Below are positions 32-17,200 of a stretch of DNA of 64,000 nucleotides, piece after piece. Below the pieces are notes generated by a model. It was not told the DNA's origin and searched no databases. It was given only the letters and a program-made list of their open reading frames with translations. The position numbers and the translations under genes are program-made. The DNA is from Eledone cirrhosa (taxonomy: Eukaryota), in the NCBI GenBank assembly GCA_964016885.1, contig OZ024744.1, positions 116,250,001-116,314,000 on the forward strand, in the 5' to 3' direction. How positions within the stretch are numbered: position 1 is the stretch's first letter; each line of letters starts with the position of its first letter.

Positions 32-397
32 TATAGCGAGGATACTGGATTGTATGGATGTAACAAAACGAGACATGGTTTGTATGTATAATATTTAATT
101 AACGGTAGATAGTATACTTGACATGTCAAAGATAGATGTTAGAATGAAACAAAGTTAGTAGTTACCGTTTTGATTGCCAGGCAAACGCGGCTGGCAGAGG
201 ACGCCTGGCTAAGGCCAGGCGCCTGTTGGCCAAATTAATGGCAGAGCCAAATGTGAGGCTCTTGACCAGGTGCCGAAAAGGCAATGAGAGAAAGGAAGCT
301 TAAAGTTGTTAGTTTTATAGGGCTCTGACCGGAAGTCGCAGAAAGGGTTCCACCTCCCGTCTAGATCCCAATCAAAACAAGGGAGACAACCGCTACA
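32..397 (-). mobile_element. 5' LTR (about 366 bp) of a CsRn1-like Gypsy element whose body continues left of the window
   Basis: Minus strand starts TGTAGCG and ends CGCTATA (decayed CGCTACA inverted terminus); internal CTATAAAA box and ATTAAA signal; followed by the Trp-type PBS. Confidence 0.65.
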
Positions 398-1236
398 TAA
401 CCTCCCGCCAGAATTTTAGTGTATAAAAATCGAAATGAAAATATGTAGCAAGTTGGCGAGAATGTTGTAACAGGCATGAAAATTACGACAAAAGAATGTT
501 CGGAAAAATCAATGATAGATATCAAGGTAGCCAACCGCTCTTGGCCAGCAACAGCAATACAGCAGCAGCAGCAACAGCAACAGCAATACAGCAACTCAGC
601 TTCACCAACAACCAAAGCCAGAGAATTAATTTTTGCAGCACTCTTCCTGTGAGAAAATCCATTTGGATGTTGGAAATTTCACGATATACCACATAACAGA
701 AACCACCTGCATTCATTCTCTGGAACACACTTTCTTTCCTGCTGTCATGTGATTGCACACCTGTGAACTATATTTTGTACATTTGAACTTTTGACTTTTC
801 TTACTTCCATTACTCTGTACCATATTTTTCATGCCTCTTACATGCTCGCCATCTTACTCCATGCATGCTTCTTTCGATTTTTTATGTTTTAAAAATCTGG
901 CGGGGGATACTGTAGTAAGAGTTGCCTCCCCTGCCACGACAATCGAATCGCTGTTCTCTAGACAGGAAGTAGGTGGAGTTGCTTCCCTTTGGGATTGACC
1001 AAACTCCCTAGTGGTCACTTCCGGTCAACAGAGATAAAAGGAGCGATTAACCGCGAAATCTCTCTCTCGCCTCCTGATTCCTGAAGTGGTAACATCTTCG
1101 ACCATAGCTGGTGATTCTTTCTGGACGATCCTTTCGTTACCAGCACAATGCAGCTCACCAGCCTGAGATGAGAGCGCCAAGATATTTCTACCAACTTCAC
1201 AATGGTATTATTGCCATCGGGTAACAACCCTTTACA
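398..1236 (+). mobile_element. Non-coding (TRIM-like or internally deleted) LTR element remnant: leader-like sequence, 3' UTR, PPT and 3' LTR (911-1236)
   Basis: 845-920 (TCGCCATCTTACTCCA...TCGATTTT...AAAATCTGGC...TACTGTAGTAAGA) is homologous to 8265-8344 of the full Gypsy; PPT CTGGCGGGGGATAC at 897-910; LTR runs TGTAGT...TTTACA; the CAG/CAA-rich 470-630 resembles the Gypsy leader at 3375-3515. Confidence 0.6.
546..594. repeat. Imperfect CAG/CAA trinucleotide microsatellite
   Basis: cagcaacagcaatacagcagcagcagcaacagcaacagcaatacagcaac. Confidence 0.85.
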
Positions 1237-1436
1237 TTATACACCTTTGACTTCTATGAAGTAAAACTTTATCACACACACCAGTACTCTTTGTCTTTTA
1301 TATTATGTTGCATGTGCACCGATATCTATTTCCTAAATGTCTGTCTACTAACCTTGTAATTATAAGTATTTATATATTTTATAATATATTATATTATATT
1401 ATATGTATTATTGATCCTTATTACTTACTGTTCATT

Positions 1437-1552
1437 ATATGTAACATTATGATATTTAAACTTTATATATCATGTAAGATGTCTGGATTTTTGTAATATT
1501 GTAATATGTAACATTATGATATTTAGACTTTACATATCATGTTAGATGTCTG
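1437..1552. repeat. Short AT-rich tandem duplication (period about 66 bp)
   Basis: atatgtaacattatgatattta..ctttaYatatcatgt.agatgtctg occurs twice. Confidence 0.75.
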
Positions 1553-1946
1553 TATATATATGTCAGCAACGTATACCTTCCTGCCAGATTGTTGATCGTA
1601 TATACTTACCTTATGCATATTAACGGGTGAGTAGCCCAATTTGCATAGCGAGTGTGTTAATCGGTCGGGTGCACCGTAAAAGATAAACGGAAAAAAAGGA
1701 AACAAAATTTCATTTCCCACTCTTAGTAAGGCTGTTACTTAAATATAAGTATGTACACGTACATACACATATGTATACAGACGTACGGTTGTATGTATAT
1801 ATATATACATACATGCACACATATATACATGTACGTATGGATTCACCGAACATTTATTATAATACTCGGTGTGTTTGTAAACACACATCCCGTATTAAGC
1901 CGTAGTGTCTAGCAATCATCGTTGCTGGTTTGTTCAACACTGACAA

Positions 1947-1999
1947 AGGAACGCTGTACTAGTTTCAAGCTTATTAGCTATCTTCAGCAACGTATACCT
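1947..1999 (-). ncRNA. Minimal type I hammerhead ribozyme, copy 1
   Basis: Minus strand AGGUAU-ACGUUG-CUGAAGA-UAGCUAAUAAGCUU-GAAA-CUAG-UA/CAGCGU-UCCU: conserved core, stem I ACGUUG:CAGCGU, stem II AGC:GCU, palindromic stem III CUAG, GUA cleavage triplet (cut between 1957 and 1956). Confidence 0.85.
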
Positions 2000-2367
2000 T
2001 CCTGCCAGATTGTTGAACGTATATACTTACCTTATGCATAATAACGGGTGAGTAGCCCAATTTGCATATCAAGTGGGTTAATCGGCCGGGTGCACCTAAA
2101 ACGATAAACGGAAAAAAATTAAACGAAATTTCATTTCCCACTCTTAGTACGGCTGTTACTTAAATATAAGTATGTACACGCACATACACATATGTATACA
2201 TACGTACAATAGTATGTATATATATATACATACATGCACACATATATACATGTACGTATGGATTCACCGAACATTTATTATAATGCTCGGTGTGTTTGTA
2301 AACACACATCCCGTATTAAGCCGTAGTATCTAGCAACCATCGTTGCTCGTTTGTTCAACACTGACAA

Positions 2368-2420
2368 AGGAACGCTGTACTAGTTTCAAGCTTATTAGCT
2401 ATCATCAGCAACGTATACCT
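2368..2420 (-). ncRNA. Minimal type I hammerhead ribozyme, copy 2
   Basis: Same motif as copy 1 with core CUGAUGA. Confidence 0.85.
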
Positions 2421-2787
2421 TCCTTCCAAATTGTTGAACGTATATACTTACCTTATGCATATTAACGGCGGAGTAGCCCAATTTGCATATCGAGTGGGTT
2501 AATCGGCCGGGTGCACCGAAAACGATAAACGGAAAAAATGAAACGGAATTTCATTCCCCACTCTTAGTACGGCTGTTACTTAAATATAAGTATGTACACG
2601 TACATACACATATGTATACAGAAGTACAGTATTATGTATATATATATACATACATGCACACATATATACATGTACGTATGGTTTCACCGAACATTTATTA
2701 TAATGCTCGGTGTGTTTTTAAACAAACATCCCGTATTAAGCCGTAGTGTCTAGCAACCATCGTTGCTCGTTTGTTCAACACTGACAA

Positions 2788-2840
2788 AGGAACGCTGTAC
2801 TAGTTTCAAACTTATTAGCTATCGTCAGCAACGTATACCT
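2788..2840 (-). ncRNA. Minimal type I hammerhead ribozyme, copy 3
   Basis: Same motif with core CUGACGA; stem II AGC:GUU replaces a G-C pair with a G-U wobble. Confidence 0.82.
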
Positions 2841-3073
2841 TCCTGCCAGATTGTGGAACGTAATTAATTACCTTATGCATATTAACGGCTGAGTAGCCCA
2901 ATTTGGATATCGAGTGGATTAATCGGCCGGATGCACCTAAAGCGATAAACGGGAAAAAATGAAACGAAATTTCATTCCCCACTCTTAGTACGGCTGTTAC
3001 TTAAATATAAGTAAGTACACGTACATACACATATGTATACAGACGTACAGTAGTGTGTATATATATATACATA

Positions 3074-3308
3074 TGTAGTAAGACGCCTCACGCTCCTTGA
3101 TAGAACAACGCCGGTTGAGAACGCCAGAAAGAAAAGACAGACAGCCACTGGAAAGCCGACGGATCACACGCCAGAAACCAGCCTCTGTAGAACACCATTG
3201 TTTGTGCTACATCAAAAAATAAATGTATATTTCATCTCTAATTTCTGCTGTTGAAATAATTATTATGTCACTCGTATCTCGATAACATCTATAACTAATA
3301 CTGCTAAA
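3074..3308 (+). repeat. 5' LTR of Gypsy copy 1 (235 bp)
   Basis: TGTAGTAAGACG...TACTGCTAAA with AATAAA; directly repeated at 8335 and 10656. Confidence 0.95.
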
Positions 3309-3309
3309 G

Positions 3310-3322
3310 TGGTGACCGACGT
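3310..3322 (+). promoter_or_regulatory. Primer-binding site, tRNA-Trp type with a 2-nt deletion
   Basis: TGGTGACCGACGT versus the expected TGGTGACCCCGACGT, 1 nt after the LTR; identical in copy 2 (10892-10904). Confidence 0.75.
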
Positions 3323-4173
3323 AAGAATTTAACGCAGCCCTTCTTTTTCACGTTGCCGGCCTTTTTTTCGCAACTTGTGAAAATAAAAAATATTCCTTTT
3401 AAAATTATCGAAAAATTAGTAGTATTTCAAAAAACCTTTTGCTACACTCGACAACAACAACGACAGCAGCATCAGCGACAACATTGTTTAACCACTGACC
3501 AAAACAGGGAATAGTGAGTGGCAGCTTCATAGCCTTACCGACGCAAACCACCACACATCGGAAATATCAAAACGATTCATTCGTGTCGATAATTGAGAGC
3601 AACTTTTTTTTATTCACTTGAATATTTCATTTCCGTTGCCAACTTTTTCGCAACTTACAGAAGAAAAAAGAAAAAAGTGTATTTTTCCAAGGTGGCGTTG
3701 CGTTCCTTCCCCGTTTTGTAACGGACACATTTTTTGAATTGCGTATGTCTTCCATGACTGATCAAGAGAGAAGAGACTAAACTTTTTTTTGTGAACATAA
3801 CTGCCCCGCATGTGGATATACATGCCTTACCTTTTTCTAAGGGATTTTTAGCCACTGGCTACCTTTGTTGATATCCAACGCGGATATATTTAAAAAACAA
3901 CAACATTTTTTTCCTCCTCTTTTTTACCTTATTTGATTTGGCTGGTTCGTTGAAGCAACGCGAGGGGACAGACGTTGAAGGAAAATTTTATTTTAAAAGA
4001 TATATATCTGTATCTTATGTATTTTTCATATTTCCTTATGTTTTGAATGTCTGTTTCTTTTTGCCCTTTAACTTTTTCTCAATATTGGCTGTTCTCTTTT
4101 TACTGTACAAGGGTACATTAATTGCTCTTTAGATATATATGTATATATATTTGTTTTAATTTTAAAAGTTGAC

Positions 4174-4956
4174 ATGAATGTACCACATTTGCCCGCCTTT
4201 ACTGGAAAACCTAAGATGTGGTTTGCCCAGTTACAGGCGTATTTTACGGTCTGTAAGACCGAATCTGACCAGCACCTCGCTGTACTGATTAGCGGCCTCC
4301 CCCCCCCCCCTAATCTAGCAGATTCGGTCCAAGACCTAATTACATACCCCCCCTCTGACTTGACGTATGAGTTTTTGAAGGGCGAGATTTTGAGGAGGAA
4401 TTGTAAGTCGGTAGAGAGTCGTTTTCGGTCACTGATCGAGGACGAACGATTAGGTGACAGGACCCCTACCGCTTTTCTCCGGCATTTGCGGGATTTGAGC
4501 GATTCCCAAGATCAGGATAGCCCTTTCCTGAAGCAATTGTTCTTCTCTCGCCTACCTCAAGAGGTACAGGCGATCCTAGCCCATATGCTAGAGGTGAATA
4601 CCCTGGATCACATTGCTGTCTCTGCTGACAAAATTGTAGAGGTGACGAAGAGAGACACTTCGAAGCCAAAGTACGTTGCTTCCTCTTCTCTTCCTCAATC
4701 ACGCTCATCAGCGTCTGATGGCAATTTAATCACCACAATGGAAGCCATGACTCGTCAAATGGCGGAGTTGTGCAAGGAATTCAGGTCCTTTGGACGGCAG
4801 AGGAGCCGCTCACGACGTTATTCAACTTCTCGCCACCGTAGCCCTTCCAACACACCAGGAACAACATATTGTTATTACCATGAAAGATATGGTAAAAAAG
4901 CCGCCCGTTGTAGGCCTTCTTGTGCTTACGAGGGAAAAGACGACCAGAGTCACTAA
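4174..4956 (+). CDS. gag: Gag protein (260 aa) with CHCC zinc motif
   Basis: Intact ORF; N-terminal LPAFTGKPKMWFAQL, LGDRTPT, RS-rich tract, and CYYHERYGKKAARCRPSC (C-X2-H-X9-C-X3-C) typical of the CsRn1 clade. Confidence 0.9.
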   Translation: MNVPHLPAFTGKPKMWFAQLQAYFTVCKTESDQHLAVLISGLPPPPNLADSVQDLITYPPSDLTYEFLKGEILRRNCKSVESRFRSLIEDERLGDRTPTAFLRHLRDLSDSQDQDSPFLKQLFFSRLPQEVQAILAHMLEVNTLDHIAVSADKIVEVTKRDTSKPKYVASSSLPQSRSSASDGNLITTMEAMTRQMAELCKEFRSFGRQRSRSRRYSTSRHRSPSNTPGTTYCYYHERYGKKAARCRPSCAYEGKDDQSH

Positions 4957-7900
4957 CGGCGGATAGTGCGCTCTGCGAAACATCTAACCGCCACTTTTTC
5001 ATTGAGGACCTGCTGTCAGGTAGAGCTTTTCTGGTTGACACAGGTGCAGCTTGTTCCGTATGGCCTGTATGTTGTATGAAGGAGACTTTCCTGAGACGCC
5101 TATTGAGTTGCAGGCAGTAAATTGTTCGCCGATTCGAACTTTAGGACAAATCTCGTTACCTTTGCAGTTTCGTAATCTGCGGCGCGAATTTAAATGGATA
5201 TTTACTGTCGCTGCCTTGCCGTATCCGATTCTAGGCGCGGATTTTCTCTACCATTTTTCATTGACGGTGGACCTTCGTGGTAAACGCCTAATTGATGGCA
5301 TCACGGGATTAACTGTTGTTGGCAAGGCAGCAGGAGTTCCAACGGTTAGCCCGACATTTTTTCTTGCTAACACCGGTGATCCTTTCCCTGCGTTGTTGAA
5401 CTCGTTCCCGCAACTGACTCGGGGAAATTTTCGATTTGATGAACCAACTCATACCACGGAGCACTTCATATCTACAACTGGGGCTCCCGTTTTCTCTCGC
5501 CCTCGTCGCTTGCCTCCGGACAAACTCAAAGCAGCACGATCAGAGTTTGATCATATGCTGCAAATGGGGATTATTCGTCCGTCCACGAGCCCGTGGGCGT
5601 CCCCATTACACATGGTACCGAAAGCGAATGGCGATTGGAGACCTACTGGAGATTATCGACGCCTGAATCCGATAACGGTACCGGACCGTTATCCTATCCC
5701 TCATCTGCAAGACTTTGCGTCTTCGTTGCAGGGATGCAAGATATTCTCCAAACTGGATTTAATTGGTGCGTACCATCAAATTCCTGTCCATAAAAATGAC
5801 ATTCCAAAAACGGCTATAGTTACGCCATTTGGGTCTTTCGAGTTTTTGACTATGCCGTTCGGATTAAGGAATGCCGCTAGTACTTTTCAGCGGTTTATGG
5901 ATGAGGTTACTCGCGGCCTCGATTTCGTCTATACCTATATTGACGATCTGCTCATTGCTAGTTCTTCTCCAGAGCAGCATACGTACCATTTGAATCTTCT
6001 TTTCCGCCGATTGAAGGCGTATAACGTGCAGCTTAATGCACCCAAATGTGTATTTGGTGCTGAGTCGCTGACTTTCTTGGGTCACGTCATCGATGCTGAC
6101 GGTATTCGACCCCGGCCTGAGCGAGTTAAGGTCATAGAGGATTTGCCTCCACCGACCTCACTACGTCAGTTACGCCAGTTCTTAGGTCTGGTTAACTTTT
6201 ATAGGCGTTTCGTGCCAAATTGTGCAAAATTGCTTTCTCCCTGACAGAAATTTTGAAAAATTGTCGGAGGAAGAACAAAGATATTTATTTGATAGATACT
6301 CAACTTGCTGATTTTCAGCACGCCCAAACTGTTTTGGCTAATGCTTCGTTACTGACTCACCCGGTACCCGGTGCAAAGCTAACGCTTTGTGTTGATGCAT
6401 CGGATATCACTGTGGGCGCAGTACTACAGCAAAACATCAATGGTTACCAGCAACCGCTGGAGTTTTTTTCCAAAAAGCTAAATCCTGCTGAGACGCGCTA
6501 CAGCACCTTTGGAAGAGAGCTTTTAGCCATCTATTTGGTCGTGAAACATTTTTCACATGTGCTAGAGGGTAGACAATTTACTATCCTCACTGACCATAAA
6601 CCATTGACTTTTGCTTTGAGAGCGAAGGCTGATAAATACTCGCCCAGAGAGACGAGACACCTTGATTTCATCTCGCAATATACGAGTGATATCCAGCATA
6701 TTCCGGGTTCACTAAATACAGCGGCCGACGCTTTGTCCCGCTTACCCGTGACAGCGATCTCGTCATCCTCTGACATAGATCTGACTCGTTTGGCTGCGGA
6801 TCAGCCTCCCCTTGAGTCGTTGGATGTCACATCGCCCGAGTTTGCGAATTGCGAGATGAAATACTTGCCTCTGTCGACTGCAGTTGGCCAAATTCTCTGC
6901 GACGTCTCTTTGGACGTGCCTAGGCCCTTCGTTCCAGAGAATCATCGTCGGACCGTGTTTCTGGGATTACATTGTATCTCGCATCCAGGATCTTCTGCCA
7001 CAGCAAAGCTCATATCAGCTAGATTTTTCTGGCCAAATATGAGGCGTGAAATTGCTGCTTGGTGCCGTTCCTACGTCGCTTGCCAGAGATCAAAGGTCCA
7101 TCGACACGTCAAGGCTCCCCTGGGTACCTTTGCTAACGCAGATGCGCGTTTTTCGCATATTCATATTGACATAGTGGGACCTTGGCCTGTCAGCGATGGT
7201 TTTTCTTATCTACTTACCGTCATTGACCGTTTTTCGAGATGGCCTGAGGCCATCCCTTTGAAAAACATCACCGCGGAGACAACAGCACGTGCTCTTGTGT
7301 CTGGATGGATCTCTCGTTATGGAGTTCCATCCACAATAACTACCGACCGTGGACGACAGTTCGAGTCGAGCCTTTTCCTCGAGCTGTCAAAATTAATTGG
7401 TGCTAAACGCATTAGAACTACGGCATACCATCCCGCTTCGAATGGTATGGTGGAGCGTTTTCACCGCCAACTGAAGGCCTCCTTAATGGCCTCAATGGAC
7501 TCGGCGCATTGGAGCGAGTACCTCCCTATTGTGCTACTAGGGATTCGGTCAACGGTGAAGGTCGACTTTGGATTTTCACCGGCCGAAGTACTGTACGGTG
7601 CCCCTCTGACGTTGCCCGGGCAAATGCTTGCCTCTATCGATCTTGATGCCCAAGATCACGCTTCCTACGTGTCCCGTTTGCGCTCCTATTTCCAGGATTT
7701 GCCGCCAATGGACACTAGGAAACAAACTGTCAAGACTGCTGTCCCGACGGATATTGCCTCGTGGACGCATGTCTTTGTAAGGAATGATACGGTGAAGCCC
7801 CCGCTCACACAGCCTTACACTGGACCTTACCGTGTCTTAGCGCGCTTGGCTAAGCATTTCACGTTAGATATTAAAGGGTCCAGGGAGACAGTTACAATAG

Positions 7901-8109
7901 ACAAGCTTAAGCAGGCTCACTTTGACACGGACGCTGTGGTTCCTGATCCACGAACCCCTTCGTATTTGCCTGTTGAGCGAACGCCTGTTCCTGAACCACC
8001 ATCATCGCCTGTCCCTACACCACCACCATCGCCACGTTACAAGACCACGACCCTTTCAGGTTGTAGGGTCCACTGGCCCAAAAAATTTTGCAGCACCGTC
8101 TATATTTAG
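4932..8109 (+). pseudogene. pol: Pol polyprotein (protease, RT, RNase H, integrase) split by two frameshifts
   Basis: Protease FLVDTGA (ORF 4920-5120); [30 protein letters not shown] (ORF 5051-6244); RNase H DAS, RELLAI, TDHKPL, ADALSR and integrase HIDIVGP, TDRGRQF, VERFHR, GPY (ORF 6220-8109). Frameshifts near 5070 and 6238. Confidence 0.93.
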
Positions 8110-8334
8110 ACTATGTTAGCTGCACCTTTTTTTTGCCTCTGTGTTTCTGCTTTTTCTTTGCCTTGTTTTTTTATGCATGCATGTCGTTTTTTTTTTAACA
8201 TTTTTCAAATCCTTATTCTGGATTCAATTTTTGCTAGAGCGGATAGCTCCCCCTTGTTGCATTGTTCGCCATCTTACTCCACATGTAAGTAATGACATCG
8301 ATTTTCGATAATTTGAAAATCTGGCTCGAGGTAC

Positions 8335-8569
8335 TGTAGTAAGACGCCTCACGCTCCTTGATAGAACAACGCCGGTTGAGAACGCCAGAAAGAAAAGACA
8401 GACAGCCACTGGAAAGCCGACGGATGACACGCCAGAAACCAGCCTCTGTACAACACCAATGTTTGTGCTACATCAAAAAATAAACGTATATTTCATCTCT
8501 AATTTCTGCTGTTGAAATAATTATTATGTCACTCGTATCTCGATAATATCTATAACTAATACTGCTAAA
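8335..8569 (+). repeat. 3' LTR of Gypsy copy 1
   Basis: Matches 3074-3308 with 5 substitutions by my count; preceded by a degenerate PPT, CTGGCTCGAGGTAC. Confidence 0.95.
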
Positions 8570-10655
8570 TAGTGTTTTGTTCAAGAACACAACACACAAC
8601 CCAGTCTAGCACCCCTACCACTAGGCCACCACACACCTCCACTGTAGTATACTAGAGTAATGTGAAATGAAGTGTTTTGTTCAAGAACACAACACGCAAC
8701 CCACTAACACCCTTACCACTAGGCCACCACATACCTCCACTGTAGTATACTGGTGTTATGTAAAATGAAGTGTTTTGTTCAAGAACACAACATACAACCC
8801 AGTCTAACACCTTTACCACTAGGCCACCCCATACCTCCACTGTAGTATACTGGAGTAATGTGAAATGAAGTGTTTTGTTCAAGAACACAACACACAACCC
8901 AATCTAACACCCTTTCCACTAGGCCACCACACACCTCGACTGTAGTATACTGGAGTAATGTGAAATGAAGTGTTTTGTTCAAGAACACATCACACAACCC
9001 AGTCTAACACCCTTACCACTAGGCCACCACATACCTCCACTGTAGTATACTGGAGTGATGTGCAATGTAGTGTTTTGTTCAAGAACACAACATACAACCC
9101 AGTCTAACACCGTTATCACTAGGCCACCACATACCCCCACTGTAGTATACTGGGGTAATTTGAAATGTAGTGTTTTGTTCAAGAACACACACACAACCCA
9201 ATTTAACACCCTTACCACTAGGCCACCACATACCTCCACTGTAGTATACTGGAGTAATGTGAAATGTATTTTTTTTTTCAAGAACACAACACACAACCCA
9301 GTCTAACACCCTTACCACTCGGTCACCACATACCCCCCCCCCCCTGTAGTATACTGGAGTGATGTGAAATGTAGTGTTTTGTTCAAGAACACAACACACA
9401 ACCCAGTCTAACACCCTTACCACGCAGCCACCACATACCTCCACTGTAGTATACTGGGGTAATGTGAAATGTACTGTTTTTTTCAAGAACACAACACACA
9501 ACCCAGTCTAACACCCTTACCAATGGGCAACCACATACCTCCACTGTAGTATACTGTAGTAATATGAAATGAAATGTTTTGTTCAAGAACACAACACACA
9601 AGCCAGTCTAACACCCTTACCACTAGGCCACCACATACCTCCACGGTAGTATAATGGAGTAATGTGAAATGTAGTGTTTTGTTCAAGAACACAACACACA
9701 ACCCAGTCTAACACCCTTACCACTATGCCACCACATACCTCCACTGTAGTATACTGGAGCTATGTGAAATGTAGTGTTTTGTTCAAGAACACAACACACA
9801 ACCCAGTCTAACACCCCTACCACTAGGCCACCACATACCTCCACTGTAGTATACTGGAGCAATGTGAAATGTTTTGTTCAAAAACACAACACAGAACCCA
9901 GTCTAACACCCTTACCACTAGGCCACCACATACCTCTACTGTAGTATACTGGTGTAATATGAAATTAAGTGTTTTTTTCAAGTACACAACACACAACCCG
10001 GTCTGACACCCTTACCAATAGGCCACCACATACCTCCACTGTAGTAATGTGAAATGTTGTGTTTTTTTCAAGAACACAACACACAATCCAGTATAACACC
10101 CTTACCACTAGGCCACCACATACCTCCACTGTAGGATACTGGAGCAATGTAAAATGTTTTGTTCAAGAACACAACATACAAGCCAGTCTAACACCCTTAC
10201 CAATAGGCCACCACATACCTCCACTGTAGTATACTGGTGTAATATGAAATGAAGTGTTTTTTTCAAGAACACAACACACAACCCAGTCTAACACCCTTAC
10301 CACTAGGCCACTACATACCTCCACTGTAGTATACTGGAGTAATGTGAAATGAAGTGTCTTGTTCAAGAACACAACACACAACCTAGTCTAACACCCTTAC
10401 CACTAGGCCACCACATACCTACACTGTAGTATACTGGAGTAATGTGAAATGAAGTGTCTTGTTCAAGAACACAACACACAACCTAGTCTAACACCCTTAC
10501 CACTAGGCCACCACATACCTCCACTGTAGTATACTGGAGTAAAGTGAAATGAAGTGTCTTGTTCAAGAACACAACACACAACCTAGTCTAACACCCTTAC
10601 CACTAGGCCACCACATACCTCCACTGTAGTATACTGGAGTAATGTGAAATGTAGT
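8570..10655. repeat. 100-bp satellite, block 1 (about 21 monomers)
   Basis: Tandem GTTCAAGAACACAACACACAACCCAGTCTAACACCCTTACCACTAGGCCACCACATACCTCCACTGTAGTATACTGGAGTAATGTGAAATGWAGTGTTTT. Confidence 0.98.
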
Positions 10656-11754
10656 TGTAGTAAGACGCCTCACGCTCCTTGATAGAACAACGCCGGTTGA
10701 GAACGCCAGAAAGAAAAGACAGACAGCCACTGGAAAGCCGACGGATCACACGCCAGAAACCAGCCTCTGTAGAACACCATTGTTTGTGCTACATCAAAAA
10801 ATAAATGTATATTTCATCTCTAATTTCTGCTGTTGAAATAATTATTATGTCACTCGTATCTCGATAACATCTATAACTAATACTGCTAAAGTGGTGACCG
10901 ACGTAAGAATTTAACGCAGCCCTTCTTTTTCACGTTGCCGGCCTTTTTTCGCAACTTGTGAAAATAAAAAATATTCCTTTTAAAATTATCGAAAAATTAG
11001 TAGTATTTCAAAAAACTTTTTGCTACACTCGACAACAACAACGACAGCAGCATCAGCGACAACATTGTTTAACCACTGACCAAAACAGGGAATAGTGAGT
11101 GGCAGCTTCATAGCCTTACCGACGCAAACCACCACACATCGGAAATATCAAAACGATTCATTCGTGTCGATAATTTAGAGCAACTTTTTTTTATTCACTT
11201 GAATATTTCATTTCCGTTGCCAACTTTTTCGCAACTTACAGAAGAAAAAAGAAAAAAGTGTATTTTTCCAAGGTGGCGTTGCGTTCCTTCCCCGTTTTGT
11301 AACGGACACATTTTTTGAATTGCGTATGTCTTCCATGACTGATCAAGAGAGAAGAGACTAAACTTTTTTTTGTGAACATAACTGCCCCGCATGTGGATAT
11401 ACATGCCTTACCTTTTTCTAAGGGATTTTTAGCCACTGGCTACCTTTGTTGATATCCAACGCGGATATATTTAAAAAACAACAACATTTTTTTCCTCCTC
11501 TTTTTTACCTTATTTGATTTGGCTGGTTCGTTGAGGCAACGCGAGGGGACAGACGTTGAAGGAAAATTTTATTTTAAAAGATATATATCTGTATCTTATG
11601 TATTTTTCATATTTCCTTATGTTTTGAATGTCTGTTTCTTTTTGCCCTTTAACTTTTTCTCAATATTGGCTGTTCTCTTTTTACTGTACAAGGGTACATT
11701 AATTGCTCTTTAGATATATAGGTATATATATTTGTTTTAATTTTAAAAGTTGAC

Positions 11755-12533
11755 ATGAATGTACCACATTTGCCCGCCTTTACTGGAAAACCTAAGATGT
11801 GGTTTGCCCAGTTACAGGCGTATTTTACGGTCTGTAAGACCGAATCTGACCAGCACCTCGCTGTACTGATTAGCGGCCTTCCCCCTAATCTAGCAGATTC
11901 GGTCCAAGACCTAATTACAGACCCTCCCCTCTCTGACTTGACGTATGAGTTTTTGAAGGGCGAGATTTTGAGGAGGAATTGTAAGTCGGTAGAGAGCGTT
12001 TTCGGTCACTGATCGAGGACGAACGATTAGGTGACAGGACCCCTACCGCTTTTCTCCGGCATTTGCGGGATTTGAGCGATTCCCAAGATCAGGATAGCCC
12101 TTTCCTGAAGCAATTGTTCTTCTCTCGCCTACCTCAAGAGGTACAGGCGATCCTAGCCCATATGCTAGAGGTGAATACCCTGGATCACATTGCTGTCTCT
12201 GCTGACAAAATTGTAGAGGTGACGAAGAGAGACACTTCGAAGCCAAAGTACGTTGCTTCCTCTTCTCTTCCTCAATCACGCTCATCAGCGTCTGATGGCA
12301 ATTTAATCACCACAATGGAAGCCATGACTCGTCAAATGGCGGAGTTGTGCAAGGAATTCAGGTCCTTTGGACGGCAGAGGAGCCGCTCACGACGTTATTC
12401 AACTTCTCGCCACCGTAGCCCTTCCAACACACCAGGAACACCATATTGTTATTACCACGAAAAATATGGTAAAAAAGCCGCCCGTTGTAGGCCTTCTTGT
12501 GCTTACGAGGGAAAAGACGACCAGAGTCACTAA
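11755..12533 (+). pseudogene. gag: Frameshifted gag, copy 2
   Basis: Split into ORFs 11755-12012 and 12063-12533 by a 1-nt loss (GAGAGCGTTTT versus GAGAGTCGTTTT in copy 1). Confidence 0.9.
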
Positions 12534-14218
12534 CGGCGGATAGTGCGCTCTGCGAAACATCTAACCGCCACTTTTTCATTGAGGACCTGCTGTCAGGTAG
12601 AGCTTTTCTGGTTGACACAGGTGCAGCTTGTTCCGTATGGCCTGTATGTTGTATGAAGGAGACTCCCCTGAGACGCCTATTGAGTTGCAGGCAGTAAATT
12701 GTTCGCCGATTCGAACTTTCGGACAAATCTCGTTACCTTTGCAGTTTCGTAATCTGCGGCGCGAGTTTAAATGGATATTTACTGTCGCTGCCTTGCCGTA
12801 TCCGATTCTAGGCGCGGATTTTCTCTACCATTTTTCATTGACGGTGGACCTTCGTGGTAAACGCCTAATTGATGGCATCACGGGATTAACTGTTGTTGGC
12901 AAGGCAGCAGGAGTTCCAACGGTTAGCCCGACATCTTTTCTTGCTAACACCGGTGATCCTTTCCCTGCGTTGTTGAACTCGTTCCCGCAACTGACTCGGG
13001 GAAATTTTCGATTTGATGAACCAACTCATACCACGGAGCACTTCATATCTATAACTGGTGCTCCCGCTTTTTCTCGTCCTCGTCGCTTGCCTCCGGACAA
13101 ACTCAAAGCAGCACGATCAGAGTTTGATCATATGCTGCAAATGGGGATTATTCGTCCGTCCACGAGCCCGTGGGCGTCCCCATTACACATGGTACCGAAA
13201 GCGAATGGCGATTGGAGACCTACTGGAGATTATCGACGCCTGAATCCGATAACGGTACCGGACCGTTATCCTATCCCTCATCTGCAAGACTTTGCGTCTT
13301 CGTTGCAGGGATGCAAGATATTCTCCAAACTGGATTTAATTGGTGCGTACCATCAAATTCCTGTCCATAAAAATGACATTCCAAAAACGGCTATAGTTAC
13401 GCCATTTGGGTCTTTCGAGTTTTTGACTATGCCGTTCGGATTAAGGAATGCCGCTAGTACTTTTCAGCGGTTTATGGATGAGGTTACTCGCGGCCTCGAT
13501 TTCGTCTATACCTATATTGACGATCTGCTCATTGCTAGTTCTTCTCCAGAGCAGCATACGCACCATTTGAATCTTCTTTTCCGCCGATTGAAGGCGTATA
13601 ACGTGCAGCTTAATGCACCCAAATGTGTTTTTGGTGCTGAGTCACTGACTTTCTTGGGTCACGTCATCGATGCTGACGGTATTCGACCCCAGCCTGAGCG
13701 AGTTAAGGTCATAGAGGATTTGCCTCCACCGACCTCACTACGTCAGTTACGCCAGTTCTTAGGTCTGGTTAACTTTTATAGGCGTTTCGTGCCAAATTGT
13801 GCAAAATTGCTTTTCTCCCTGACAGAAATTTTGAAAAATTGTCGGAGGAAGAACAAAGATATTTCTTTGACAGACACTCAACTTGCTGATTTTCAGCACG
13901 CCAAAACTGTTTTGGCTAATGCTTCGTTACTGACTCACCCGGTACCCGGTGCAAAGCTAATGCTTTGTGTTGATGCATCGGATATCGCTGTGGGCGCAGT
14001 ACTACAGCAAAACATCAATGGTTACCAGCAACCGCTGGAGTTTTTTTCCAAAAAGCTAAATCCTGCTGAGACGCGCTACAGCACCTTTGGAAGAGAGCTT
14101 TTAGCCATCTATTTGGCCGTGAAACATTTTTCACATGTGCTAGAGGGTAGACAATTTACTATCCTCACTGACCATAAACCATTGACTTTTGCTTTGAGAC
14201 GAGACACCTTGATTTCAT
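12509..14218 (+). pseudogene. pol: Truncated pol (PR, RT, partial RNase H), copy 2
   Basis: DTGA and YIDD motifs present; same protease frameshift as copy 1; a 31-bp deletion after [11 protein letters not shown], then truncation. Confidence 0.92.
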
Positions 14219-17200
14219 ATCAGCTAGTATACTGGAGTAATGTGAAATGAAGTGTCTTGTTTTCAAGAACACAACACACAACCCAGTCTAACACCCTTAC
14301 CACTAGGCCACCACATACCTCCACTGTAGTATACTGTAGTAATGTGAAATGAAGTGTTTTGTTCAAGAACACAACACACACCCCAGCCTAACACCCTTAC
14401 CACGAGGCCATCACATGCCTCCACTGTAGTATACTGGAGTAATGTGAGATGATGTGTCTTGTTCAAGAACACAATACACAACCCAGTCTAACACCCTACC
14501 ACTAGGCCACTCCATACCTCCACTGCAATATACTGGAGTAATGTGATATGAAGTGTTTTGTTCAAGAACACAACACACAACCCAGTCTAACACCCTTACC
14601 ACTAGGTCACATACCTCCACTGTAGTATACTGTAGTAATGTGAAATGAAGTGTCTTGCTCAAGAACACAACACACAACCCAGTCTAACACCCTTACCACT
14701 AGGTCACCACATACCTCCACTGTAGTATACTGGAGCAATGTGAAATGTTTTGTTCAAGTACACAACACACAACCCAGTCTAATAACCTTACCACTAGGCC
14801 ACCACATACCTCCACTGTAGTATACTGGAGTAATGTGAAATGTAGTGTTTTGTTCAAGAACACAACACACAACACAGTCTAACACCCTTACCACTAGGCC
14901 ACCACATACCTCCACTGTAGTATAATGTTATGTGAAATGAAGTGTCTTGTTCAAGAACACAACACACAACCCATCCTAATACCCTTACCACTAGGCCATC
15001 ACATACATCCACTGTAGTATACTGGAGTAATGTGAAATGAAGTGTTTTGTTCAAGAACACAACACACAACCCAGTCTAACTCCCTTACCACTAGGCCACA
15101 ACATACCTCCACTGTAGTATACTGGAGTAATGTGAAATGAAGTGTTTTGTTCAAGAACACAACACACAACCCAGTCTAAAACCCTTACCATTAGGCCACC
15201 CCATACCTCCACTATAGTATACTGGAGTAATGTAAATGAAGTGTCTTGTTCAAGAACACAACACACAACCCAGTCTAACTCCCTTACCACTAGGCCACCA
15301 CATACCGCCACTGTAGTATACTGGAGTAATGTGAAATGAAGTGTTTTGTTCAAGAACATAACACACAACCCAGTCTAACAACCTTACCACTAGGTCACAT
15401 ACCTCCACTGTAGTATACTGGAGTAATGTGAAATGAAGTGTCTTGTTCAAGAATACAACACACAACCCAGTCTAATAACCTTAGCACTAGGTCACCACTT
15501 ACCTCCCCTGTAGTATACTGGGGTAATGTGAAATGTAGTGTTTTGTTCAAGAACACAACACACAACCCAGTCTAACACCCTTACCACTAGGCCACCATAT
15601 ACCTCCACTGTAGTATACTGGAGCAATGTGAAATGAAGTGCCTTGTTCAAGAACACAACACACAACCCAGTCTAACACCCTTACCACTAGGCCACCACAT
15701 ACCTCCACGGTAGTATAATGGAGTAATGTGAAATGTTGTGTTTTGTTCAAGAACACAACACACAACCCAGTCTAACACCCTTACCACTAGGCCACCACAT
15801 ACCTCCACGGTAGTATAATGGAGTAATGTGAAATGTTGTGTTTTGTTCAAGAACACAACACACAACCCAGTCTAACACCCTTACCACTAGGCCACCACAT
15901 ACCTCCACTGTAGTATACTGGAGTAATGTGAAATGAAGTGTTTTGTTCAAGAACACAACACACAACCCAGTCTAGGCCACCACATACCTCCACTGTAGTA
16001 TACTGGTGTAATATGAAATGAAGTGTTTTTTTCAAGAACACAAAACAGAACCCAGTCTAACAACCTTACAAATAGGCCACCACATACCTCCACTGTAGTA
16101 TACTGGAGTAATGTGAAATGAAGTGTCTTGTTCAAGAACACAACACACTATACAGTCTAACACCCTTACCACTAGGCCACCACATACCCCGACTAGTATA
16201 CTGGAGTAATGTGAAATGTGGTGTTTTGTTCAAGAACACAACACACAACCCAGTCTAACACCCTTACCACTAGGCCACCACATACCTCCACTGTAGTATA
16301 CGGGAGTAATGAGAAATGAAGTGTTCAAGAACACAACACAGAGCTCAGTCTAACAACCTTACCACTAGGCCACCACATACCTCCACGGTAGTATAATGGA
16401 GTAATGTGAAATGTAGTGTTTTGTTCAAGAACACAACACACAACCCAGTCTAACACCCTTACCACTAGGCCACGACATACCTCCACTGTAGTATACTGGA
16501 GTAATGTGAAATGTAGTGTTTTGATCAAGAACACAACACACAACCCAGTCTAATACCTTACCACTAGGCCACCACATACCTCCACGGTAGTATACTGGAG
16601 TAATGTGAAATGAAGTGTTTTGTTCAAGAACACAATACACAACCCAGTCTAACACCCTTACCACTAGGCCACCACATACCACCACTGTAGTATACTGGAG
16701 TAATGTGAAATGTAGTGTTTTTTTCAAGAACACAACACACAATCCAGTATAACACCCTTACCAATAGGCCACCACAGACCTCCACTGTAGTATACTGGTG
16801 TAATATGAAATGAAGTGTTTAGTTCAAGAACACAACACACAAACCAGTCTAACACCCTTACTACTAGGCCACCACATAACTCCACTGTAGGATACTGGAG
16901 TAATGTGAAATGTAGTGTTTTGTTCAAGAACACAACACACAACCCAGTCTAACACCCTTACCACTATGCCACCACATACCTCCACTGTAGTATACTGGAG
17001 CTATGTAAAATGTTTTGTTCAAGAACACAACACAGAAGCCAGTCTAACACCCTTGCCAATAGGCCACCACAGACCTCCACTGTAGTATACTGGTGTAATA
17101 TGAAATGAAGTGTTTTGTTCAAGAACACAACACACAACCCAGTCTAACACCCTTACCATTAGGCCACCCCATACCTCCACTATAGTATACTGGAGTAATG

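What the first reader, a model, noticed from the sequence alone, without database searches (positions are those of the whole stretch)
1562..3073. Tandem 421-bp repeat encoding self-cleaving hammerhead ribozymes (candidate retrozyme or circRNA-producing array)
Seen: each full unit has, on the minus strand, ACGUUG-CUGANGA-UAGCUAAUAAGCUU-GAAA-CUAG-UA/CAGCGU at 1947-1999, 2368-2420 and 2788-2840. A fourth motif is truncated at CUGAC, exactly at the array edge (1562). Within the motif the copies differ only at the free core position N7 (A, U, C) and by one G-C to G-U change in stem II, which looks like selection on structure. Known: minimal type I hammerheads with a palindromic stem III cleave as dimers and occur in Penelope-like element pLTRs, in metazoan non-LTR retrozymes, and in newt satellite 2 and Schistosoma Sm-alpha repeats. 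Inference: a multimeric transcript would be cut into about 421-nt monomers that could circularise and be retrotransposed in trans. Caveat: the first stem II pair is U-U rather than G-C, so activity may be low or dimer-dependent. The class is known; whether this family is described I cannot tell.
Basis: partly seen in the sequence, partly recalled or inferred. Interest (0 to 1): 0.9.

Follow-up and report, generated by a model that had tools for sequence, protein, structure and literature searches.

The report
Hammerhead retrozyme array, Penelope-type insertion
This is a damaged piece of an abundant non-coding repeat that carries a predicted self-cutting RNA motif in every unit; intact copies elsewhere in the genome sit in TA microsatellites as two back-to-back arms, one ending at each of two fixed points, which suggests that Penelope-type retrotransposon enzymes likely copy it from a small RNA circle.

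Summary
Confirmed: a 421-bp x3.6 array with three type I hammerheads on the minus strand. It belongs to a genome-wide family (3610 first-look candidates) with relatives at 77% and 61% identity that keep the core and show compensatory stem changes. Neither edge is an original end: a Gypsy LTR on the right, an inverted Penelope fragment on the left. Intact copies show a Penelope-type signature: variable 5' truncation, (TA)n flanks, two opposed arms, 3' ends at two fixed sites 217 and 274 nt past the cut. One arm ends at each site in 21 of 21 scorable insertions (relatives 18 of 19, 17 of 17). Units of one insertion often share a variant across both arms, as a circular monomer template predicts. 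An octamer-plus-TATA pair resembles this genome's U6/MRP promoters. Cleavage, expression, circles and the partner element are not shown. Verdict: new member of the known non-LTR retrozymes, with useful mechanistic evidence. The scan had already noted the two-arm pattern on other DNA.

The parts
1562..3073 (-). 3.6 units of a 421-bp non-coding hammerhead repeat (family A); both ends are later breakpoints
   Evidence: no ORF of 90 aa or more
1951..1993 (-). type I hammerhead motif, N7=A; predicted cut between 1957 and 1956
2372..2414 (-). type I hammerhead motif, N7=U; predicted cut between 2378 and 2377
2792..2834 (-). type I hammerhead motif, N7=C, one G-U in stem II; predicted cut between 2798 and 2797
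1562..1572 (-). 5' remnant of a fourth motif, cut off by the left junction
2104..2161 (-). 'tail' between the two family-wide 3' end sites (site 1 at about 2161, site 2 at about 2104; same in each unit: 1683/1740, 2525/2581, 2945/3002); inferred reverse-transcription start sites
2018..2067 (-). octamer (2060-2067; also 1639-1646, 2481-2488) and TATA-like box (2018-2025): predicted U6-like internal promoter
1337..1559 (+). left flank: inverted fragment of the terminal repeat of an unrelated Penelope-like element lying upstream of the window
3074..8569 (+). right flank: Gypsy-type LTR retrotransposon (LTRs 3074-3311 and 8335-8569) inserted in the unit's TA-rich tract

Best explanation
The array is a truncated piece of a non-coding, multi-copy hammerhead repeat (an animal non-LTR retrozyme) that is likely mobilised in trans by the RT/GIY-YIG protein of Penelope-like elements (PLEs). 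Shown: the motif, the family, the insertion anatomy. Inferred steps: (1) an internal octamer/TATA promoter would drive minus-strand RNA through the tandem; (2) adjacent hammerheads would pair through the palindromic stem III and cut, freeing a 421-nt monomer that would be ligated to a circle; (3) a PLE protein would cut both strands of a (TA)n target and prime the RNA at two sites 57 nt apart, one per strand; (4) each cDNA would run round the template for a variable length, giving two opposed, 5'-truncated, often multi-unit arms; (5) some insertions later grow by DNA-level duplication into long arrays and are broken up by other elements, as here.
For: Ends: 71 of 95 family-A arm ends fall at 212-217 or 273-275, mostly followed by (TA)n; 5' ends scatter. 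Of 32 two-armed A insertions, 21 have both ends at a site and all 21 have one of each (p=5e-7). Relatives: B 18 of 19 (counted by hand), C 17 of 17. This matches the PLE tandem/inverted structure with a tail at one end (PMC8557442) and the two RT start sites, two-strand cutting and AT-rich target of a PLE protein in vitro (PMC11167929). PLE-type GIY-YIG genes are abundant (10595 candidates, 150 scored), most of those inspected with a Neptune-type Cys linker. Template: a non-majority base is fixed in every covering unit in 25 of 40 A, 8 of 30 B and 14 of 40 C insertions, and across both arms in 13, 4 and 11; permutation means 6.6/2.3, 0.9/0.18, 0.35/0.11, never reached. One B insertion has 16 near-identical units over both arms. 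Ribozyme: 6 of 14 pairs change on both sides over 8 sequences, 0 of 500 shuffles reach the score; A vs C identity is 61%; common variants in DNA contigs hit N7, loop II, H17 and one co-varying stem I pair but no core base. Promoter: octamer at -76 to -78 and TATA at -30 in this genome's U6 and RNase MRP genes, no such octamer in two U2 genes; the repeat has the same pair.
Against: No cleavage, transcript or circle was observed. The 10.1-11.1 pair is U-U in families A and B, against the conserved G-C (PMC4209133). Only 1 of 9 Xenopus retrozyme dimers cleaved in vitro, and cleavage was not needed for PLE priming in vitro. No PLE with a homologous terminal repeat was found in 51 loci. Variants shared by some but not all units occur in 13 of 40 A and 8 of 40 C insertions, and many fixed A variants are lineage markers, so homogeneous multimeric RNA can explain part of the signal. 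The octamer-TATA spacing is 42-43 vs 46-48 nt, and T4-T8 runs on the RNA strand would stop Pol III before a full unit. Loci were the best-scoring 40 candidates per search; the C query ended at site 1. The covariation set is small and related.
Confidence: 0.75

Rival explanations
1. PLE-mobilised, but from uncut linear multimeric transcripts. The hammerhead is a weak or vestigial passenger, and homogeneity is inherited from uniform source arrays.
For: HHR mutants did not affect PLE priming in vitro; U-U at the base of stem II; partial variant sharing in 13 of 40 A and 8 of 40 C insertions; no insertion end maps to the cut site.
Against: Core and stems are kept over about 40% divergence in a non-coding unit. 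Variants private to one insertion are fixed in all its units and both arms (e.g. L132, L162, L165). Read by eye, none of the 8 partly shared C cases shows the same-position sharing between arms that a mixed linear template would give.
Confidence: 0.17
2. It is the orphan terminal repeat (pLTR) of an autonomous PLE family whose full-length copies were not sampled; the tandem units are repeated 5'-truncated insertions.
For: Same ends, tail and target as PLEs; Xenopus retrozymes resemble pLTRs. Only about 50 of 10595 GIY-YIG candidates were inspected.
Against: Units are joined seamlessly in constant phase for up to about 50 units, and no inspected copy of A, B or C runs into ORF sequence. PLE repeats seen here carry different hammerheads.
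Confidence: 0.05
3. Ordinary satellite DNA spread by DNA-level processes (unequal exchange, DNA circles, Helitron-type capture); the motif is incidental.
For: Long arrays exist: about 52 units 8 kb upstream, with a 5.2-kb block duplicated together with a 168-bp insert, so DNA-level growth does act.
Against: Does not explain two fixed 3' ends, the one-arm-per-site rule, (TA)n targeting or covariation.
Confidence: 0.03

Closest known systems
Metazoan non-LTR retrozymes (Cervera and de la Pena 2020, PMC7229834; Li, Clavereau and Pollet 2026, bioRxiv 10.64898/2026.07.22.740005); newt satellite 2 and axolotl repeats
   Same: Tandem low-GC unit of a few hundred bp, one type I hammerhead per unit, short palindromic helix III suited to dimer cleavage, no ORF, co-occurs with PLEs.
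   Different: U-U at 10.1-11.1; expression and circles not shown here. The parts I read argue PLE dependence from co-occurrence and pLTR homology, not from insertion ends, paired arms or within-insertion haplotypes.
Endonuclease-bearing Penelope-like elements, Neptune and Poseidon clades (PMC8557442, PMC11167929, PMC4209133)
   Same: 5' truncation, tandem plus inverted arms, tail at one end, (TA)n targets, hammerhead upstream of the two end sites.
   Different: No RT/GIY-YIG ORF; tail is 57-74 nt rather than 30-40; no homologous pLTR found in 51 loci.
U6-type (type 3) snRNA promoters of the same genome; newt satellite 2 snRNA-type promoter (seen only as a citation in PMC2220036)
   Same: Octamer followed by a TATA box, with the predicted start just before the ribozyme.
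   Different: Spacing 4-5 nt shorter, no significant PSE alignment, internal T-runs; polymerase unknown.

Membership tests
Non-LTR retrozyme | Type I hammerhead in each of at least two consecutive units | tested here: met
   3 consecutive full motifs; covariation; Rfam models did not score it
Non-LTR retrozyme | Tandem unit of about 150-450 bp, GC below 50% | tested here: met
   421 bp; about 38% GC in the 2-kb bins
Non-LTR retrozyme | Non-coding, no LTR structure | tested here: met
   no ORF of 90 aa or more; ends are tail sites, not LTRs
Non-LTR retrozyme | Dispersed multi-copy family | tested here: met
   3610 candidates, 40 scored, 197 matches; 168 full copies on 13 contigs
Non-LTR retrozyme | Conserved G10.1-C11.1 pair of the hammerhead | tested here: not met
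   U-U in A and B, G-C in C; U-U also occurs in PLE-linked hammerheads of this genome. A consensus feature of the ribozyme, not a defining one of the class
Non-LTR retrozyme | Self-cleavage of the RNA | not testable with these tools
   only folding energies
Non-LTR retrozyme | Expression as linear and circular RNA | not testable with these tools
   no RNA holder listed; indirect support from haplotypes
Non-LTR retrozyme | Target-site duplication longer than 4 bp when present | tested here: inconclusive
   (TA)n flanks hide any duplication
Autonomous Penelope-like element | RT plus GIY-YIG ORF between terminal repeats | tested here: not met
Autonomous Penelope-like element | Tandem/inverted insertion with tail and microsatellite target | tested here: met
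   (works like a PLE insertion)
Autonomous Penelope-like element | Unit homologous to the pLTR of a coding PLE | tested here: inconclusive
   none in 51 loci, a small sample of 10595 candidates

The most novel reading that the evidence does not exclude
The insertions record the whole retrozyme cycle: a U6-type internal promoter feeds dimer-cleaving hammerheads, and a dimeric Penelope RT primes one circular monomer at two fixed sites, one per cut target strand, and copies it by rolling circle. This would explain the Penelope one-sided tail and inverted arms, and give the hammerhead a required role.
Probability: 0.45. Interest if true: 0.7.

Novelty: new member of a known kind. Interest (0 to 1): 0.5.

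Why it matters
How animal retrozymes move is proposed but not shown; the 2026 preprint says it has limited evidence on their life cycle. What hammerheads do in Penelope-type elements is also open. Three related families of different age give a short non-coding RNA with two mapped start sites, a one-arm-per-site rule and a haplotype test for a circular template, all testable with the existing in vitro PLE assay. The array in the window itself is an ordinary, damaged copy.

Tried and rejected
Rfam scan: no hammerhead; the miRNA hits are the TA-rich tract. Expression: no RNA holder listed, no evidence either way. Runs X1-X3 are contigs of one sample and may be the assembly's source; X4 gave one low-depth contig like family B, which is no evidence. 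Reads were laid on only a 311-base part of the array. Partner search: BLAST and a three-family HMM over 51 PLE loci found only retrozyme copies and other hammerhead repeats. The PLE-like ORF next to the window has no Pfam hit and only a weak match to a Neptune-type ORF (E=0.004); it is called PLE-like from its motifs, direct repeats and own hammerhead and shares no sequence with the unit. The single motif does not fold better than shuffles (z about 0); the unit's z of -4.7 owes much to the TA-rich hairpin. The automated end-calling for family B was noisy, so one search was counted by hand. Local alignment to U6/U2 upstream DNA was mostly not significant (1 of 15 comparisons at 5/500 or better). 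The idea that array edges mark cut sites was rejected. Lunse et al. 2017 and Coats et al. 1994 are not held. A cephalopod host was a guess behind searches and was not tested.

Full report
OBSERVATION. The array is real: 1563-3073, period 421, 3.6 copies. Each full unit has a 43-nt type I hammerhead on the minus strand at 1951-1993, 2372-2414 and 2792-2834: stem I 6 bp, stem II 4 bp on a U-U pair, a six-base palindromic stem III, cut after GUA. Such a motif arose in 2 of 30000 shuffled units and nowhere else in the window. Rfam's models do not score it. The single active fold is poor (-1.3 kcal/mol against an MFE of -8.1). The double hammerhead is -19.4, within 1.3 of the co-fold minimum, and costs 5.5 kcal/mol in a two-unit RNA. 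These are predictions.

EDGES. The right edge is a Gypsy-type element whose LTR starts at 3074 in the unit's TA-rich tract. The left edge joins an inverted 223-bp piece of the terminal repeat of a Penelope-like element. That element (785-aa ORF, 1.2-kb direct repeats, its own different hammerhead) fills most of the 8 kb between this array and an array of about 52 units upstream. Window and upstream units share two variants that about a fifth of other copies carry, so the window array is probably a detached part of it (inference). Units differ by 5.7%: an old, broken copy.

FAMILY. The own genome (3.0 Gb) gave 3610 candidates, 40 scored. Two relatives turned up: B (477 nt, 758 candidates, 77% identical, copies 98-99% alike) and C (468 nt, 699 candidates, 61% identical, copies 99% alike). 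Within A the motif is barely more conserved than the rest (0.024 vs 0.033 in 168 copies), and 41 of about 52 upstream units keep the core pattern. Across families it is clearly kept: in 8 sequences 6 of 14 pairs change on both sides and 0 of 500 shuffles reach the covariation score, though the set is small and related. In DNA contigs the variants above 5% hit 3 of 8 free and 2 of 35 constrained motif positions, the two being partners of one pair (Fisher p=0.04).

INSERTION ANATOMY. In 53 family-A loci, 71 of 95 arm ends lie at 212-217 or 273-275 nt past the cut site, mostly running into (TA)n; 5' ends scatter; the three ends scored at the cut site are alignment breaks. Of 32 two-armed insertions (three duplicated pairs in L205 counted once), 11 have an end elsewhere and were not scored; the other 21 all have one arm at each site (p=5e-7). 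B has the homologous sites 262 and 321, with 18 of 19 one-each (by hand; 30 insertions seen). C has 230/235 and 302-304, with 41 of 41 ends at a site and 17 of 17 one-each (the query favoured site-1 arms, not their partners). This is the PLE pattern: partial tandems, an inverted 5'-truncated copy, a tail often at one end only, microsatellite bias (PMC8557442, passages). In vitro a PLE protein cuts and extends both strands at AT-rich DNA and starts at two internal sites that bound the tail (PMC11167929, main text). PLE endonuclease genes are abundant here, most of those inspected with a Neptune-type Cys linker (the clade name rests on the linker as described). The partner family was not found in 51 loci.

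TEMPLATE. If one RNA monomer is copied round and round, a variant should be fixed in all units of an insertion, both arms included. This holds in 25 of 40 A, 8 of 30 B and 14 of 40 C insertions, and across both arms in 13, 4 and 11. No permutation reached these counts (500, 2000 and 1000 runs). For B, one duplicate locus and five distant pieces were dropped first. Several variants are private to one insertion, and one B insertion has 16 units at 0.1% divergence over both arms. Against: many A variants are lineage markers; partial sharing occurs in 13 of 40 A and 8 of 40 C insertions; conversion or uniform source arrays could contribute. A circular monomer is the simplest reading (about 0.6), as proposed in PMC4209133 (parts 1-2) and PMC7229834 (passages).

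PROMOTER. A, B, C and a further hammerhead family keep an octamer 42-43 nt before a TATA-like box. Three U6 loci and RNase MRP of this genome have an octamer (one with a mismatch) at -76 to -78 and TATA at -30. The best U6atac hit has the TATA and, by eye, a one-mismatch octamer; two U2 loci lack it. Counting 30 nt from the TATA puts the start 2 nt before stem I in A. The spacing differs by 4-5 nt and T-runs lie within the unit, so the polymerase is open. A snRNA-type promoter is reported for newt satellite 2 (seen only as a citation in PMC2220036).

KNOWN AND NEW. It meets the testable features of animal non-LTR retrozymes; cleavage and circles are untestable here. Li et al. 2026 (parts 1-3 of 5; supplements not seen) link retrozymes to PLEs by co-occurrence and homology and found 1 of 9 dimers active. 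Seven searches listed no paper describing this family or the one-arm-per-site rule for retrozymes; subscription papers are not covered. PMC6765202 was seen as passages; Lunse 2017 is recalled only. Earlier scan notes report the same two-arm pattern in other families of this and other genomes. I had reached it before looking; they are not independent support. No look-alike of this unit was on file.

VERDICT. Observation confirmed; interpretation supported in outline. New member of a known kind, with genomic evidence on how the class moves. Interest 0.5.

Noticed in passing
window 3074-8569 and 10656-14225; L033, L035, L036: One Gypsy family (LTRs 98% identical) sits in the TA-rich tract of the hammerhead unit at three different positions (138, 146, 153) on this contig, and twice in or beside the 100-bp satellite; possible target preference. 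The window copies have interrupted reading frames.
   Followed up: partly
window 8571-10655 and 14225-57616: 100-bp satellite, 21 and 440 copies, about 88% matches; also present upstream in L034 and L209.
   Followed up: no
L031 (8 kb upstream of the window); L119: Penelope-like element of a clade distant from the Neptune types (785-aa ORF, no Pfam hit, 1.2-kb direct repeats, own hammerhead); found next to family A here and family B in L119.
   Followed up: partly
L076, L077, L084, L088, L093 3' regions: Neptune-type PLE repeats carry hammerheads with the U3-A8 core variant and a palindromic stem III; others have U-U at the base of stem II.
   Followed up: partly
L093:6780-7000, L084, L090: A further hammerhead repeat family with a different ribozyme shares the octamer/TATA segment with families A-C.
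   Followed up: partly
L032: A 5.2-kb block of the long array is duplicated together with a 168-bp insert, showing DNA-level growth of the array.
   Followed up: no
window 393-485 and 823-1337: Ends of two LTR elements facing each other; 910-1337 is one of a pair of 428-bp LTRs 99.8% identical.
   Followed up: no
G000:C19:31.78-31.84 Mb and C3:307.35-307.45 Mb: Tandem clusters of U6 (about 30) and U2 (about 40) genes.
   Followed up: no
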